NCBI GenBank assembly: GCA_041660745.1
Contig: JBAZVT010000004.1
Coordinates: 1-40,860 of the forward strand
Origin: Minisyncoccota bacterium
GTDB lineage: Bacteria > Patescibacteriota > Minisyncoccia > Phycocordibacterales > JBAZVT01
Length of the DNA stretch: 40,860 bases
Reading direction: 5' to 3'
Part shown: positions 8,591 through 12,299 of the stretch, piece by piece
Numbering within the stretch: position 1 is the first letter of the stretch
Layout of the letters: every line of letters starts with the position of its first letter
Translations under genes and position numbers: made by a program
Notes under the pieces: generated by a model
Seen by the model: the letters and a program-made list of their open reading frames with translations, nothing else
The model's database searches: none
Told to the model about the DNA's origin: nothing

Positions 8591-9990
8591 ATGAAGAAAT
8601 CTTTAATTATTAAATAGGAAAAATAGATGTAGAACATTGCAGTAAGCCCGAGCATGCATGACATGAAGATACTTGGACGTGCATACCTCGGCAAAAAACG
8701 ATTATTAGCATACAGTAATATCGGCGTATATATTGCCATTGTTACCCCACCAAGAACAGAACTGATAAGAAGAAAGCCGAGGGGCTGATTGAACGGTACC
8801 AATATTGCTGCGACTAAAATAAAGCATGTCATAAGCCCGTAATACAAATGATGGACCGAGATAGGTTCCAACCAATGGAACATTTTAACAAGTGGTCCAA
8901 CGCGAGAGTTAGTATGAATAATATCTGTAACCATTCTTGTTAGAGCATCAAACACAGTCCACATAACAGAAAAGAGCATAAGATATGCCATAACAAGATA
9001 AATTTTTTCTCCCCAAATTCCCCACTCTGACCCAAAAATAGCTGCTTGTGCCACCGCAACGTGGGTACCTTCTGGAATAATGCCCTGTGGTGCCAGTACG
9101 ACTTGAGCATTTGCAGCAAGAAGAACCATTGAGATCAAACCTGTAAACCAAAAGATAACAACCTGATCAATACGCATAAAACGCATCCATCCATGCCAAT
9201 TTTTCATATTTTCAGGTGTATGCTCAAACGTAAACGAAGAAACGGCAATCGCTTCGTGTTTTCCTGTAACAGGATTTTCTATTCTCCCCACATACGCACC
9301 CATACCCGCCTGCTTGTCTCGATACCACAAACTAACACAGAGATTCAACATTCCACCCGCACCGGAAAAAACGACGGCACCAAGGAGAACTTTCATATCA
9401 ATACCCTCTGGTATCCACCCAAAATTAATCAAACCTTTAAACACATCCACAAGGTGGTTGCCTCCAAGTGTTTGAGTGCTAATAGCTATCAACATGAGGA
9501 GAAATAGCGGCACTATGATTTTAAGACTCCTTTCAAGCATTACGTATGCCACCTTCCCCTTTAAAGTAAGCAGTAGAACAAGACCAAGAGATATCCATGA
9601 CCACATCACATAACTTCCAAAACCAAATAATTCAGTAAGAATTGTTCCGAGAGCAGTTGCCCACCCTGGCCACACATACAGCAATACCGCTGATAGAAGC
9701 CAAAATATCGGAGACCACTTTAACACTCTGCCAGATGTCGTAAAAAAACTTTCCCCCGTAGCGAGTGAATGTCGAGCAACTTCATGGTTGATAATTAGTT
9801 GAAGTGTAATACCGACAAGCGCAAGCCATAAAATCCCTAGACCATACTTTACTACTAAGTGAGGCCACATGATAAGTTCTCCAGTTCCCATTGCCATTCC
9901 CATGACAACAATACCAACACCAATGGCAGTCCAGAGACGCGGGGCTGGGGGAAAATTTCTTTTTTCATGTGTTGGATATTGAGAATTCAT
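8587..9990 (-). CDS. Nramp-superfamily-like membrane transporter (divergent; lacks the DPGN and MPH metal-site motifs)
   Basis: Start trimmed to MNSQYP (ATG 9990). About 11 TM segments. GTGELIMWP...YGLGILWLALVGITLQLIINHEVARHSLATGESF parallels the Nramp TM1-TM2 block (GPG...DPGN...FGY.LLW....Q..ARLG..TG). Confidence 0.6.
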   Translation of the reverse strand: MNSQYPTHEKRNFPPAPRLWTAIGVGIVVMGMAMGTGELIMWPHLVVKYGLGILWLALVGITLQLIINHEVARHSLATGESFFTTSGRVLKWSPIFWLLSAVLLYVWPGWATALGTILTELFGFGSYVMWSWISLGLVLLLTLKGKVAYVMLERSLKIIVPLFLLMLIAISTQTLGGNHLVDVFKGLINFGWIPEGIDMKVLLGAVVFSGAGGMLNLCVSLWYRDKQAGMGAYVGRIENPVTGKHEAIAVSSFTFEHTPENMKNWHGWMRFMRIDQVVIFWFTGLISMVLLAANAQVVLAPQGIIPEGTHVAVAQAAIFGSEWGIWGEKIYLVMAYLMLFSVMWTVFDALTRMVTDIIHTNSRVGPLVKMFHWLEPISVHHLYYGLMTCFILVAAILVPFNQPLGFLLISSVLGGVTMAIYTPILLYANNRFLPRYARPSIFMSCMLGLTAMFYIYFSYLIIKDFFI

Positions 9991-10111
9991 ATTTTTAATT
10001 ATATCAGATTTTACTGGAAAAAAAATAATAATTCTGCTAGACTGTCTCATAGTTGGGCGGTTAACTGTTTTGGCTGATAACATCAAATTGGTACTTTTTA
10101 AAATAGATAAT

Positions 10112-10184
10112 GGGCGGTTAGCTCAGTTGGTAGAGCGCAACATTGACGTTGTTGATGTCAGAGGTTCGAATCCTCTACCGCCCA
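10112..10184 (+). tRNA. tRNA-Val (anticodon GAC), no encoded CCA
   Basis: Manual cloverleaf: gggcggt/accgccc acceptor, gctc/gagc D stem, caaca-ttGACgt-tgttg anticodon arm, agagg-ttcgaat-cctct T arm. 73 nt. Confidence 0.93.
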
Positions 10185-10223
10185 CAGAAAAAATCCCCTC
10201 TAGGGGATTTTTTGCTGGGCGGT
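10177..10223 (+). terminator. tRNA-Val trailer hairpin/terminator whose stem reaches into the acceptor 3' strand
   Basis: aaaaaatcccc (10188-10198) pairs with ggggatttttt (10203-10213). The outer pair is accgccca (10177-10184) with tgggcggt (10216-10223). Confidence 0.7.
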
Positions 10224-10248
10224 AAAAAATCTCCAGGGGAGATTTTGT

Positions 10249-10339
10249 GAGGATTCGAAAGCCGGAGCGCGACGGCGCGAGGCGGGGTCGCGAGATTTTT
10301 CAGTAGAAAAATACTCGTGACCGAATCCTTTACCCCCGC
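10249..10339 (+). ncRNA. Candidate structured RNA module in the tRNA-Val trailer (three-way junction closed by an anti-T / T-prime stem)
   Basis: gaggattcgaa (10249-10259) is the reverse complement of the tRNA-Val T-loop plus 3' T-stem. Hairpins at 10262-10285 and 10287-10321. cgaatcct (10322-10329) pairs with aggattcg (10250-10257). A G.T pair in the long hairpin is legal only on the + strand. Confidence 0.4.
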
Positions 10340-10433
10340 GGATAACCACAGTAAGTGATACTCCGAGCGTTTCTACCCCTTTGCAACTCTCATGTAAAAA
10401 ATTGCACCTTCCCAGGTATCACCCCACTGGCGT

Positions 10434-10547
10434 CACCACAGGAGTACTTCTATTTCCCTAATTCGTAAAACTCATAAGGGAAATAAGTTGCACCACAAGA
10501 GTACTTCTATTTCCCTAATTCGTAAAACTCATAAGGGAAATAAGTTG
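10434..10547 (+). repeat. Tandem direct repeat, 2 x 57 nt (56/57 identical), each unit a bulged hairpin
   Basis: Unit caccaca[g/a]gagtacttctatttccctaattcgtaaaactcataagggaaataagttg at 10434-10490 and 10491-10547. Internal stem tatttccct/agggaaata. Confidence 0.95.
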
Positions 10548-10643
10548 TACACAGTTTTCACTTGCAGTTCATGAAGACCAGCGTAAAATTATTATTAGGT
10601 CAGTACCACTTCGCTTCTTTCACTTTTAGCAGGGAGGATGGTC

Positions 10644-10937
10644 ATGTCACAACAGCAAGTCCGTGACACCCGAGGTAAGTTCCTCATCGTAGGCGTCTCC
10701 GGGCACAGCCTGAAGGAACTCAATGAAAGGCCGGATGTTATCATCTGGAAAAGTGATAAGAATACTCGAACGCAGAAACGAGTAGTCCCTTCATCGGTCC
10801 AGGTGATTATTGCTACAAAGACTCTCAGTCACGATGCATTCATACAGCTCAGAAAGGAGGCTCGACGAATCAAGGCAAGTTTTGACTTCATGTCAACCGG
10901 CCGCATCCGGGAAACTTTGGCGGGCTTCGGCGTTTGA
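10644..10937 (+). CDS. Hypothetical small protein (97 aa), G+C-rich; weak resemblance to DUF2325-type proteins
   Basis: GGGAGG lies 6 nt before the second ATG (10644), and a terminator follows. The pattern FLIVGVSG...VIIATKTLSHDAF...K resembles DUF2325 from memory only. Confidence 0.5.
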   Translation: MSQQQVRDTRGKFLIVGVSGHSLKELNERPDVIIWKSDKNTRTQKRVVPSSVQVIIATKTLSHDAFIQLRKEARRIKASFDFMSTGRIRETLAGFGV

Positions 10938-10955
10938 AAAGTGCATGGGAAGAAT

Positions 10956-10993
10956 GGGGCTCGCACCGTGCGGACCCCTCTTTTTTTATTTTT
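10956..10993 (+). terminator. Terminator after the small ORF (overlaps the 3' end of the convergent DUF1653 gene)
   Basis: ggggctcgcac...gtgcggacccc imperfect GC stem followed by tctttttttattttt. Confidence 0.6.
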
Positions 10994-11219
10994 CTCTCAC
11001 CCACTGAAATCTCTCAACCTTCTTTCCCTCAATTAAAACCTCCTCAGTAAACATTGCCGCCGGACGTACCCAGATTGCATCTTTACCAAAATCAGAAGAT
11101 TCGTAAAGTGCCCGATACACTACCAACTCTTCCAAAGTCTCACTGTGATGTGCAGTTCCAACTAGTTCATATTCCTTTCCACTTTTAGAATGTTTGTAAA
11201 TTCCTTTTTTAAGTTCCAT
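10986..11219 (-). CDS. DUF1653 domain protein
   Basis: Start trimmed to MELKKGIYKHSKSGKEYELVG. HSETLEELVVYRALY....WVRP..MF matches the DUF1653 core. Confidence 0.8.
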   Translation of the reverse strand: MELKKGIYKHSKSGKEYELVGTAHHSETLEELVVYRALYESSDFGKDAIWVRPAAMFTEEVLIEGKKVERFQWVREK

Positions 11220-11226
11220 ATATTTT

Positions 11227-11781
11227 TTACTCAAACCTATCAAATGTTAACCACCGCATTGTTCCCATCGGTATGTGATAAATATTCTCAAGCACATATC
11301 GAGCGTCCTCAAACATTACTTTAGTCCACTCAAAACCGAGCGATTCTGTAAACTCCTTTAGCGCGTCATGCGAAGGTCCTTCAAATTCTACATATGTTGG
11401 AACTCTAGGCCACGTATCAATATCAATAACAAATTTCCCCAAAGTTAACTTGTGACGTTTCTTTTGCTGTCTTCTATAGGCGACATAGCCCAACTTTTCT
11501 AACAACAAAACTCCTTTCTCAAGATCCCCCACAACAAACTCAATTTCTTGTGCGCCATCCAGCACATTTGACGCGTGCTCTTTATAGGTAATTTTTACTA
11601 TATCACCTGATTTTCGAAGTCTAATAAAACGTCGCTGGTTAATCCACGTAAGTTCCTTGTCATACAAAATAACTTCTTCAAGCACCACCTCACCGTGATC
11701 AACAGCTCCTTGTGCAAGAAGTTTCTGTACAAGGTCACCTTTGTTTATTTCTAAAAAACGCACTTCGGTTTCTTTTTCCAT
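11227..11781 (-). CDS. CYTH-domain protein (triphosphate tunnel metalloenzyme / class IV adenylate cyclase-like)
   Basis: Start trimmed to MEKETEVRFLEI (the EXEXK-like N-terminus of CYTH), 184 aa. The longer ORF extension overlaps the NDK-like gene and is rejected. Confidence 0.75.
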   Translation of the reverse strand: MEKETEVRFLEINKGDLVQKLLAQGAVDHGEVVLEEVILYDKELTWINQRRFIRLRKSGDIVKITYKEHASNVLDGAQEIEFVVGDLEKGVLLLEKLGYVAYRRQQKKRHKLTLGKFVIDIDTWPRVPTYVEFEGPSHDALKEFTESLGFEWTKVMFEDARYVLENIYHIPMGTMRWLTFDRFE

Positions 11782-11787
11782 AAGGAA

Positions 11788-11796
11788 ATAATAGCA
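11788..11796 (-). promoter_or_regulatory. Extended -10 (TGCTATTAT) 6 nt upstream of the CYTH ATG; possible leaderless transcript
   Basis: - strand reads tgctattat-ttcctt-ATG, with no SD. Confidence 0.3.
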
Positions 11797-11820
11797 CAAA
11801 AAAAAGGGCGCGGGACCCTT
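11797..11820 (-). terminator. Weak terminator after the NDK-like gene
   Basis: - strand aaggg-tcccgcg-ccctt followed by T8; the stem is only 5 bp. Confidence 0.4.
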
Positions 11821-12277
11821 AACGAATAAGTCCCAGCACCTTAGCGATCTGCAAATGTCGTACCGCTTCCTCTTCATCTCTCGGTCGATGGATAACGTTA
11901 GGATGATACCAAACAGGTCGTCCATCAGACCAACCAACAACCCTAGACAGCTCATCTCCGAACCGTCCTCGGATTGTCTTATAAGGACATTGTGCAGGGT
12001 TGATGTTGCGCCCACACACGGTAACGAGTTTGTGGACCGCGTCATTGCCCTCCACAATTCCGACCTCACACTCCTTTCCAGCCATATGATCGAGGATTGC
12101 ATCCCAGAGACATGTTGGCGTAGAAATGGGATAGAGAGCTCTCAGCTCACTCTCAGTAAGCCTGACAGTCACTTCATCAACAATGTTAAGGCCGGAAAGC
12201 ATTAACATGTCCCGTATCGCCTCACGCCGAGACAACCATTCGGGCTTGATGATATACATACTTTTTCGTGATGGCAT
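11819..12277 (-). CDS. ndk: Nucleoside diphosphate kinase-like protein (divergent)
   Basis: YIIKPEW (~ IKPD), IRGRFG (~ IRGDF), NVIHRP with the catalytic His (~ N.IHGSD). ATG at 12277 preceded by AGGAAGG. Confidence 0.7.
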   Translation of the reverse strand: MPSRKSMYIIKPEWLSRREAIRDMLMLSGLNIVDEVTVRLTESELRALYPISTPTCLWDAILDHMAGKECEVGIVEGNDAVHKLVTVCGRNINPAQCPYKTIRGRFGDELSRVVGWSDGRPVWYHPNVIHRPRDEEEAVRHLQIAKVLGLIR

Positions 12278-12299
12278 TTTCACCTTCCTTTCTATTCTT

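What the first reader, a model, noticed from the sequence alone, without database searches (positions are those of the whole stretch)
10340..10637. Long ORF-free, G+C-rich, highly structured leader containing a 2 x 57-nt tandem hairpin repeat
From the tRNA-Val terminator to the ORF at 10644 there are about 450 nt with no ORF of 60 aa or more. G+C is higher than the genome background, which is unusual for intergenic DNA in an AT-rich, gene-dense genome. Besides the junction module, it holds a perfect-register tandem duplication (10434-10490 and 10491-10547, 56/57 identical). Each unit folds into a bulged hairpin (acttc-tatttccct / agggaaata-agt). There is also a possible long-range pairing of gtgatac (10355-10361) with gtatcac (10416-10422). 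Large ornate RNAs such as ROOL and GOLLD are known to lie next to tRNA genes, so a novel large or modular ncRNA is a reasonable hypothesis. Protein-binding iterons are an alternative.
Basis: partly seen in the sequence, partly recalled or inferred. Interest (0 to 1): 0.6.

Follow-up and report, generated by a model that had tools for sequence, protein, structure and literature searches.

The report
Tandem copy of dispersed hairpin repeat
The 2 x 57-base repeat is two adjoining copies of a small hairpin-forming repeat scattered between the genes of one order of ultra-small (CPR) bacteria, so this "leader" is a patchwork of repeat modules and not one large RNA.

Summary
It is not a single-locus ornate RNA or a leader. 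The 57-nt unit ("B") occurs at 10 places in this genome. It was found in 34 of 151 sampled genomes of the same order, with up to 17 copies per genome, and in 0 of 150 other genomes of the phylum. Its 8-bp stem shows strong compensatory variation, while a 5' arm (CACCACARGRGYACTTCT) and a 3' end (AWGTCGC) stay constant. Copies are intergenic. They lie in either orientation to neighbouring genes, have no recurrent partner gene, and are not coding. Some sit inside other hairpins, and one B-bearing block is missing at a collinear site in a congener. Tandem 57-nt arrays recur in other genomes. I read B as a new family of small interspersed, probably mobile, hairpin repeats that works like BOX or REP elements. 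The spacer is a mosaic: tRNA-Val, a terminator-like hairpin, a widespread tRNA-tail cassette (module "A", 10217-10340), lineage-specific filler, B x 2, and then the short 5' region of a near-orphan 97-aa ORF. The given interval is not G+C-rich (0.409 against 0.411 for the contig). No Rfam family matches it. No RNA data were available, so an RNA-level role remains open.

The parts
10112..10185 (+). tRNA-Val(GAC), preceded by a promoter-like site at 10077-10104
   Evidence: ARAGORN; Rfam tRNA 71.1 bits; promoter scan
10188..10213 (+). A-run / GC hairpin / T-run palindrome (AAAAAATCCCCTCTAGGGGATTTTTT), terminator-like
   Evidence: Read from the sequence and paired in the MFE fold. The consensus scan does not call it because the loop is shorter than 3 nt.
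10217..10340 (+). tRNA-tail cassette. GGGCGGT (complement of the tRNA-Val acceptor 3' strand), a hairpin, AGGATTCGAAA, module A, then CGAATCCTTTACCCCCGC, a decayed direct copy of the tRNA-Val 3' end (14 of 19).
10261..10322 (+). Module A core, a 62-nt two-hairpin junction RNA motif (GCCGGAG..GAGGCGGGGTCGCGAG..CTCGTGACC)
   Evidence: 7 copies in the own genome and 107 of 151 order genomes. 97.7% of cells paired, 13 of 22 pairs changed on both sides, G-T 89 against A-C 6. 31 of 45 copies have a same-strand tRNA within 400 nt upstream.
10341..10433 (+). Lineage-specific filler ('module C') holding the inverted repeat gtgatac (10355-10361) / gtatcac (10416-10422). Its last 34 nt recur with a B unit on contig C33.
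   Evidence: No match in 40 relatives. In-genome partial copies: C33:5263-5315 (89% over 55 nt); C47 and C34 are weak, E 0.11.
10434..10490 (+). B unit 1 (57 nt): CACCACAGGAGTACTTCT, 8-bp stem, 17-nt loop, stem, AAGTTG
   Evidence: TRF; cmsearch 84.9 bits
10491..10547 (+). B unit 2 (57 nt), 56/57 identical to unit 1
   Evidence: TRF; cmsearch 89 bits
10548..10643 (+). Unique sequence before the ORF, with Shine-Dalgarno-like GGGAGG at 10632-10637
   Evidence: Sequence. No in-genome or relative matches. No promoter called.
10644..10937 (+). 97-aa ORF (listed as 99 aa from ATG 10638), near-orphan, with a weak sub-threshold DUF2325 match

Best explanation
The 2 x 57-nt array is a recent local duplication of one member of a previously uncatalogued family of small interspersed hairpin repeats ('B'). 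The family is confined, as far as sampled, to one order of CPR/Patescibacteria. A unit has three parts: a constant 18-nt 5' arm (CACCACARGRGYACTTCT); a hairpin of 4 bp, a CT bulge and 8 bp, whose 8-bp stem is free to vary as long as it pairs; and a constant 3' end (AWGTCGC). The first 8-9 nt of a unit (GTCGCACCA) repeat its last ones, so tandem units share one copy of this short direct repeat. Shown: the family, its structure, its copy number, its dispersal, its lack of gene association and its presence/absence between congeners. Inferred: B is a non-autonomous, selfish or mobile DNA element. It is recognised as a hairpin on one strand, most likely as single-stranded DNA, by an enzyme encoded elsewhere. 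It lodges in tolerant intergenic DNA, often in the loops of other hairpins and in the variable DNA behind tRNA genes. It is amplified locally by slippage or recombination between its terminal direct repeats. The 450-nt 'leader' is therefore a junkyard-type mosaic: tRNA-Val, a terminator-like hairpin, the tRNA-tail cassette with module A, filler, B x 2 and the ORF's short 5' region.
For: (1) Multi-copy and dispersed. There are 10 covariance-model hits in the own genome on 8 contigs, and hits in 34 of 151 order genomes at E<=1e-3, with up to 17 per genome. None was found in 150 other genomes of the phylum at E<=1e-6. (2) Structure is kept by compensation. On 41 copies, 95.8% of cells pair, 7 of 12 pairs change on both sides, and the covariation score is 0.409 against 0.114 in shuffles (0 of 500 reach it); slid registers give 39-53% pairing. 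(3) No fixed relation to genes. Among 29 copies outside the window with both flanking ORFs called, 6 are co-directional with both, 8 are antisense to both, 9 lie between convergent genes and 6 between divergent genes. No flanking protein family recurs in more than 3 of 38 loci. (4) Not coding: the best frame is open in 12 of 36 copies. (5) Nested in other hairpins. Three own copies (C2, C6, C47) sit inside 11-20-bp perfect stems with T-runs. Flanks pair more strongly than the 5th percentile of mismatched controls in 7 of 36 copies. By eye, in the sequences printed, B lies inside the loops of module A's two hairpins (L045, L037). (6) Presence/absence. At a collinear intergenic site, G030 has a block of about 215 nt with B that G142, of the same genus, lacks; imperfect 8-9-nt direct repeats flank it. 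At tRNA-Lys, G022 has B where its congener G136 has other hairpins. (7) Recurrent recent tandem arrays with the same period: own C33, G039, G142:C155. (8) One strand folds: in the stems G-T is 11 against A-C 1. Copies close to tRNAs are mostly antisense to them (13 of 17), which fits DNA-level better than co-transcribed RNA-level recognition.
Against: No transposase or other partner was identified. Y1 transposase genes occur in 89 of 151 genomes, in 23 of the 34 with B, and G001 has 11 B copies and no Y1 gene. B has no terminal inverted repeats and no clean target-site duplication. The single empty-site case involves a composite block of about 215 nt, not B alone, and could be a deletion. The 5' arm and loop ends are conserved across families of the order more tightly than a passive repeat needs. 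The G-T over A-C asymmetry, and a possible 4-bp pairing of the 5' arm with the loop (90.4% of cells pair), would also fit a folded RNA. No RNA data exist to exclude transcription. Half of the copies (17 of 34) lie within 500 nt of a tRNA gene, which may mean more than 'tolerant DNA'.
Confidence: 0.6

Rival explanations
1. B is a multi-copy small RNA or RNA-level element, for example a stabiliser, a processing signal or a protein-binding RNA hairpin. It would be transcribed on the CACCAC strand, and the tandem pair would give two RNA units.
For: Strong covariation. G-T 11 against A-C 1 in the stems. The putative 5'-arm/loop pairing is full of G-U and pairs in 90.4% of cells against 31-57% in slid registers. 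The single-stranded arm is highly conserved. Three own copies sit in terminator-like stems.
Against: Orientation to flanking genes is mixed. Next to tRNAs, 13 of 17 copies are antisense. The 8-bp stem has 1 G-U in about 320 cells. The pseudoknot is no better than partner-shuffled sequences, 90.9% against 92.0%. No complementary target of the 18-nt arm exists in the genome at up to 3 mismatches. Short variants lack the loop. No promoter was called.
Confidence: 0.2
2. B units are mini-cassettes joined by site-specific recombination at the shared core GTCGCACC. This would parallel the tRNA-tail cassettes next door, and the tandem array would be a two-cassette array.
For: Units are bounded by the same 8-9-nt direct repeat and share one copy in arrays. 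B is enriched in the cassette regions behind tRNA genes, 17 of 34 within 500 nt. The own genome encodes large serine recombinases of 543, 560 and more than 437 aa, and tyrosine recombinases.
Against: No recombinase is linked to B. The core belongs to the conserved element and is not a locus-specific site. A 57-nt cassette with no cargo has no precedent that I know of.
Confidence: 0.1
3. The two units are iterons or operators: double-stranded DNA sites for a regulator of the downstream 97-aa ORF.
For: In three own loci (C4, C33 x 2) B ends 70-100 nt before a same-strand start codon.
Against: The consensus scan calls no promoter here. B occurs at 10 own loci and in 33 other genomes, and no protein family recurs beside it in more than 3 of 38 loci. 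The ORF's only relative found is one cluster at 63% identity. Compensatory stem changes and the G-T/A-C asymmetry are not expected of a duplex binding site. Downstream genes are as often on the opposite strand.
Confidence: 0.05
4. The whole 450 nt is one large structured ncRNA or leader (ROOL/GOLLD-like), co-transcribed with tRNA-Val or with the ORF.
For: The spacer folds better than shuffles, and module A is an RNA-like structure on the tRNA strand.
Against: No Rfam match. Only the modules are conserved, each on its own and with different phyletic spread. The filler 10341-10433 and 10548-10637 has no relatives. A terminator-like hairpin follows the tRNA.
Confidence: 0.03
5. A type III toxin-antitoxin locus: tandem RNA antitoxin repeats followed by a toxin gene.
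For: Tandem direct repeats lie just upstream of a small ORF.
Against: The ORF has no ToxN/Abi-type domain, only DUF2325 at 16.5 bits against a cut-off of 33.6. B is dispersed as single units without such an ORF.
Confidence: 0.02

Closest known systems
BOX elements of Streptococcus pneumoniae (boxA-boxB(n)-boxC), described with RUP and SPRITE in PMC3049150. I saw the search listing and the start of the abstract only; the details are recalled.
   Same: Small, non-coding, intergenic, hairpin-forming modular repeats. An internal module of about 45 nt (boxB) occurs in variable tandem number. No transposase of their own.
   Different: Unrelated sequence and host. B has a constant single-stranded 5' arm and a freely covarying stem. 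There are no flanking A and C modules. Copy number is lower (1-17 per genome).
REP/BIME elements and their RAYT (Y1) transposases (recalled)
   Same: A short imperfect hairpin with a conserved 5' tail, recognised on one strand. Units cluster in tandem or inverted groups and lie in extragenic DNA.
   Different: No GTAG tetranucleotide. No co-occurrence with Y1 transposase genes. Far fewer copies. Stems differ between copies within one genome.
NTS/SRM hairpin repeats cut by Ssn GIY-YIG single-strand nucleases (PMC11893778; passages read)
   Same: Constant flanks around a hairpin, multi-copy, and function at the single-stranded DNA level.
   Different: The published SRM search pattern does not match 10186-10643 on either strand. 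No small GIY-YIG gene recurs beside B. B is longer, 57 nt against 20-50 nt.
RtT / tRNA-linked repeats behind E. coli tRNA-Tyr (Rfam RF00391). This name comes from earlier notes of this scan and from recall. It concerns the neighbouring module A cassette, not B.
   Same: A structured unit behind a tRNA gene, bounded by a copy of that tRNA's 3' end.
   Different: No RtT match at E<=10. The module A core has a different sequence. Here the layout affects 16 of 44 tRNA genes.

Membership tests
Rfam large or ornate RNAs (ROOL, GOLLD, raiA, HEARO) and any other Rfam 15 family | A match to the family covariance model at or near its gathering score | tested here: not met
   Only 4 tRNAs reach gathering score in the window. 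At E<=10 on 10050-11100 nothing falls inside 10340-10637. tRNA-tail cassettes on L006 also gave only tRNAs and sub-threshold noise.
REP / RAYT system | A conserved GTAG 5' of an imperfect palindrome | tested here: not met
   No GTAG or CTAC in 10420-10550. The 5' arm is CACCACARGRGYACTTCT.
REP / RAYT system | Co-occurrence with a Y1 (RAYT) transposase gene | tested here: not met
   PF01797 is in 89 of 151 genomes and in 23 of the 34 with B. G001 has 11 B copies and no match.
MITE | Terminal inverted repeats and a target-site duplication | tested here: inconclusive
   The unit ends are direct, not inverted, repeats. One filled/empty comparison shows imperfect 8-9-nt direct repeats around a composite block of about 215 nt, not around B alone.
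Ssn-related motif (SRM/NTS) | A match to the published degenerate SRM pattern | tested here: not met
   Zero matches in 10186-10643 on both strands; 8 in the whole genome (pattern taken from PMC11893778).
Type III toxin-antitoxin (ToxIN-like) | Tandem RNA repeats directly upstream of a ToxN/Abi-type endoribonuclease gene, found together | tested here: not met
   The ORF has only a sub-threshold DUF2325 hit. B is dispersed without any recurrent neighbouring gene.
CRISPR array | Repeats separated by unique spacers | tested here: not met
   The period equals the unit length, so there is no spacer.
Cis-regulatory leader or riboswitch | A fixed position and orientation upstream of one gene family | tested here: not met
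   Mixed orientation and no recurrent flanking family.
Small interspersed hairpin repeats (BOX/REP/ERIC/SPRITE kind) | Multi-copy, intergenic, non-coding, hairpin-forming, and variable between close relatives | tested here: met

The most novel reading that the evidence does not exclude
B is not passive junk. It would be the recognition hairpin of an unidentified single-strand-specific enzyme system of this CPR order. That enzyme would read a constant 18-nt arm plus a sequence-free stem, possibly with an arm-loop pseudoknot, and would place B into the loops of other hairpins. Those include the loops of the tRNA-tail cassette RNAs (module A) that follow about a third of the tRNA genes. In that case the spacer behind tRNA-Val records two interacting, undescribed systems that remodel tRNA-linked non-coding cassettes.
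Probability: 0.15. Interest if true: 0.7.

Novelty: new member of a known kind. Interest (0 to 1): 0.4.

Why it matters
The result removes a false lead: there is no large ornate RNA here. It adds a well-supported repeat family, with a covariance model and 41 aligned copies, to the little that is known about non-coding DNA in ultra-small CPR genomes, which are usually described as streamlined. My two literature searches on such repeats found no paper that joins Patescibacteria or Parcubacteria with MITE, REP or interspersed-repeat terms, and none on tRNA-linked mimics in these bacteria. Repeats of this kind break assemblies, since several copies lie at contig ends. They can also be mistaken for riboswitches or sRNAs because they covary. 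The one-strand folding signal and the nesting in hairpin loops point to an unidentified enzyme worth finding.

Tried and rejected
- RNA evidence: no RNA holder is listed for 9800-11300, so expression is untested.
- Logan contigs of 4 DNA runs: no contig spans the spacer, and bins 10196-10232 and 10344-10417 have no cover, so no copy-number or empty-site information came from them.
- Pseudoknot of the 5' arm (GAGT) with the loop (RYUC): 90.4% of cells pair, but there are no changes on both sides, and it is no better than partner-shuffled sequences. It is left as possible only.
- Trans-acting seed: no complementary site of the 18-nt arm in the genome at up to 3 mismatches.
- Outer closing stem as a general feature: only 7 of 36 copies.
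- Viral origin: 4 IMG/VR contigs hold the 18-nt arm pattern, but 3 of them score only 16-18 bits with the model and the fourth gave no match at E<=0.01, so none is a real B. A fixed-spacing pattern for module A found nothing and was probably too strict.
- Orthologous spacer: the ORF has no relative in the species-representative genomes and one cluster at 63% identity in the protein collection. No flanking-gene synteny was found with other tRNA-Val + A loci.
- My by-eye promoter TTGCAG-17-TAAAAT near 10563-10591 is not called by the scan, so I dropped it.
- One search was a mis-specified alignment and gave nothing.

Full report
**The observation**

The window places tRNA-Val(GAC) at 10112-10185. 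An A-run/GC-hairpin/T-run palindrome follows at 10188-10213. No ORF of 60 aa or more occurs before the ORF that begins at 10638/10644.

Tandem Repeats Finder reports 10434-10547 with period 57, 2.0 copies and 98% matches. This is the highest-scoring array in the window. The two units differ at one base. Each unit contains ACTT-CT-ATTTCCCT ... AGGGAAAT-AAGT, that is a 4-bp helix, a CT bulge and an 8-bp helix.

The claim of high G+C holds only for the part left of the finding:

| Interval | GC | Source |
|---|---|---|
| 10186-10340 | 0.523 | |
| 10340-10637 (the finding) | 0.409 | |
| Tandem repeat itself | 0.360 | |
| Contig mean | 0.411 | |

ORF-free gaps of 450 nt or more are common in this genome: 60 of 616 gaps between ORFs of at least 100 aa.

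**What the 57-nt unit is**

A search of the window's own 1.03-Mb genome with the spacer showed that it is a mosaic of sequences repeated elsewhere. The unit, called B here, recurs on contigs C2, C6, C47 and C33 (twice). The copies keep CACCACARGAGTACTTCT and AAGTYG, but their stems differ in a compensatory way: ATTTCCCT/AGGGAAAT, ATTTCTCT/AGAGAAAT, TGTTTTCT/AGAAAACA, TATTTTCT/AGAAAATA and TGTTGTCT/AGACAACA.

A covariance model built from six copies gave these hits:
- 10 in the own genome.
- Hits in 34 of 151 sampled genomes of the same order at E<=1e-3, with up to 17 per genome.
- None in 150 other genomes drawn across the phylum at E<=1e-6. That sample held 1 genome of the same order, 5 of the same class and 144 others.

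On 41 copies aligned from 35 sources, 95.8% of cells pair and 7 of 12 pairs change on both sides. The covariation score is 0.409 against 0.114 for shuffles (0 of 500 reach it). Sliding the partner by 1-3 columns drops pairing to 39-53%. The hairpin is therefore a selected structure.

**What B is not**

- **Not coding.** The best reading frame is open in 12 of 36 copies.
- **Not a known RNA family.** No Rfam family matches.
- **Not tied to a gene.** Among 29 copies outside the window with both neighbours called, 6 are co-directional with both genes, 8 are antisense to both, 9 lie between convergent genes and 6 between divergent genes. All-against-all comparison of 156 flanking ORFs from 38 loci found no family present in more than 3 loci.
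- **Not specific to the downstream ORF.** That ORF is nearly an orphan, with one cluster at 63% identity among 5.8 billion proteins and only a sub-threshold DUF2325 hit.
- **Not linked to Y1 transposases.** Their genes are in 89 of 151 genomes, in 23 of the 34 with B, and G001 has 11 B copies and none.
- **Not an Ssn-related motif or a REP.** The published Ssn-related motif pattern does not match, and there is no GTAG.

**How B behaves**

- **Nested in other hairpins.** Three own copies lie in the loops of long perfect hairpins with T-runs. Seven of 36 copies have flanks that pair more strongly than the 5th percentile of mismatched controls.
- **Close to tRNA genes.** Half of the copies outside this genome (17 of 34) lie within 500 nt of a tRNA gene, and 13 of those 17 are antisense to it. 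In the sequences printed I read B, by eye, inside the loops of module A's two hairpins (L045, L037), next to A (L036, L055), or as the main content of a tRNA-tail cassette (L035, L048).
- **Variable between congeners.** G030 has a block of about 215 nt with B between flanks that are collinear in G142. Imperfect 8-9-nt direct repeats stand at the joints. G022 and G136 differ in what follows the same tRNA-Lys.
- **Tandem arrays recur.** Near-identical units with the same 57-58-nt period are seen on own C33, in G039 and at G142:C155. The unit begins and ends with the same 8-9 nt (GTCGCACCA / GTCGCNCA), and arrays share one copy of it. This gives a simple route to duplication by slippage or recombination.
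- **One strand folds.** In the stems G-T pairs outnumber A-C 11 to 1, so one strand is the folded one. The 8-bp stem is almost purely Watson-Crick.

**Interpretation**

The best reading is a new family of small interspersed hairpin repeats. The family is probably mobile or at least unstable, and is recognised as a hairpin on one strand by an enzyme not yet identified. The window carries a recent two-unit array of it. I give this 0.6.

An RNA-level role gets 0.2. It is kept alive by the tight conservation of the single-stranded arm and by a possible arm-loop pairing that is rich in G-U. That pairing is no better than partner-shuffled controls, and no complementary target exists in the genome. 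No RNA data were available.

Smaller shares go to a cassette-by-recombination variant, to operators or iterons, to a single large RNA and to a type III toxin-antitoxin locus.

**The rest of the spacer**

Its 62-nt core, called A here (10261-10322), was found in 107 of 151 order genomes, with up to 27 copies per genome, and in 3 of 150 other genomes of the phylum.

On 45 copies, 97.7% of cells pair and 13 of 22 pairs change on both sides. G-T pairs outnumber A-C 89 to 6, so A is an RNA-type structure on the tRNA strand. Of the 45 copies, 31 have a same-strand tRNA gene within 400 nt upstream, mostly 53-77 nt away. Six more have only a same-strand tRNA downstream.

The sequence just 3' of A copies the 3' end of that tRNA, from the T-loop to the discriminator. 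The mean best ungapped match is 14.6 of 22 against 10.3 for other tRNAs, and seven loci reach 19 of 22. The 5' flank is often the reverse complement of the same tRNA end.

In this genome 16 of 44 tRNA genes carry such a direct copy (at least 13 of 16) of their last 16 nt, 115-270 nt downstream. None of the 44 has one upstream, and 12 of 1802 mismatched pairs do. Two kinds of content lie between the tRNA and the copy. Earlier notes of this scan describe the same layout in other Patescibacteria.

The stretch 10341-10433 has no relatives outside this genome and only partial copies inside it. The stretch 10548-10643 is unique.

**Novelty and interest**

B is a new member of a known kind of element. 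I found no description of it, and neither of my two literature searches on such repeats returned one. The finding as posed, an ornate RNA or leader, is not supported. Interest is moderate (0.4). It rests on the clean covariation, the one-strand folding signal, the nesting in hairpin loops and the link to the tRNA-tail cassette regions.

Noticed in passing
window 10217-10340 (core 10261-10322); own genome C41:634-705, C14:22516-22587, C7:26164-26235, C7:19631-19726, C36:1439-1511: Module A is a 62-nt two-hairpin junction RNA motif set in the 'T-loop' of a mimic of the upstream tRNA's 3' end. It was found in 107 of 151 order genomes, with up to 27 copies each. 31 of 45 copies lie within 400 nt downstream of a same-strand tRNA. 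There is no Rfam match.
   Followed up: yes
own genome, 16 of 44 tRNA genes (e.g. C2:28403-28474 Met, C6:5814-5898 Leu, C34:5518-5589 Gly): A direct copy (at least 13 of 16, six of them 16 of 16) of the tRNA's last 16 nt lies 115-270 nt downstream. None of the 44 has one upstream, and 12 of 1802 mismatched tRNA pairs do. In congeners G022 and G136 both arms follow each genome's own T-stem variant, while the content between them differs.
   Followed up: partly
own genome cassettes behind Leu-CAG (C6), His (C14), Pro (C26), Gly (C34), Arg-CCT (C2), Arg-CCG (C14), Asn (C22), Ser-TGA (C14), Asp (C2): A second cassette content type: GCCCGATTGAGATTTT..AAAATCCAATTGGGGTACTGA, followed by a 5-bp stem that varies in a compensatory way, with a constant TGTAA loop that looks like an anticodon loop (YUGUAAR).
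   Followed up: no
own genome contigs C1 (97 kb, GC 0.511) and C44 (4.6 kb, GC 0.598): GC is far from the 0.38-0.48 of the other 49 contigs, so these two may be mis-binned.
   Followed up: no
ends of most contigs of the own genome (about 100-130 nt): Contig ends match other contig ends or internal repeats in a self-BLAST. This looks like assembly-graph overlaps at repeats, and several B and A copies in relatives also lie at contig ends.
   Followed up: no
window 10077-10104: A sigma-70-like site (ATAACA-16-TAAAAT) ends 8 nt before tRNA-Val, so the tRNA seems to have its own promoter.
   Followed up: no
own genome C8:20042-20479, C16:3836-4279, C7:75-512: Three large serine-recombinase genes (open frames of 543, 560 and more than 437 aa). 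They are candidates for moving tRNA-end cassettes, and none is near the window.
   Followed up: no
window 11227-12283 (- strand): A CYTH-domain ORF (291 aa) overlaps an NDK-domain ORF (154 aa) in another frame by about 280 nt. This may be a start-site or frameshift issue.
   Followed up: no
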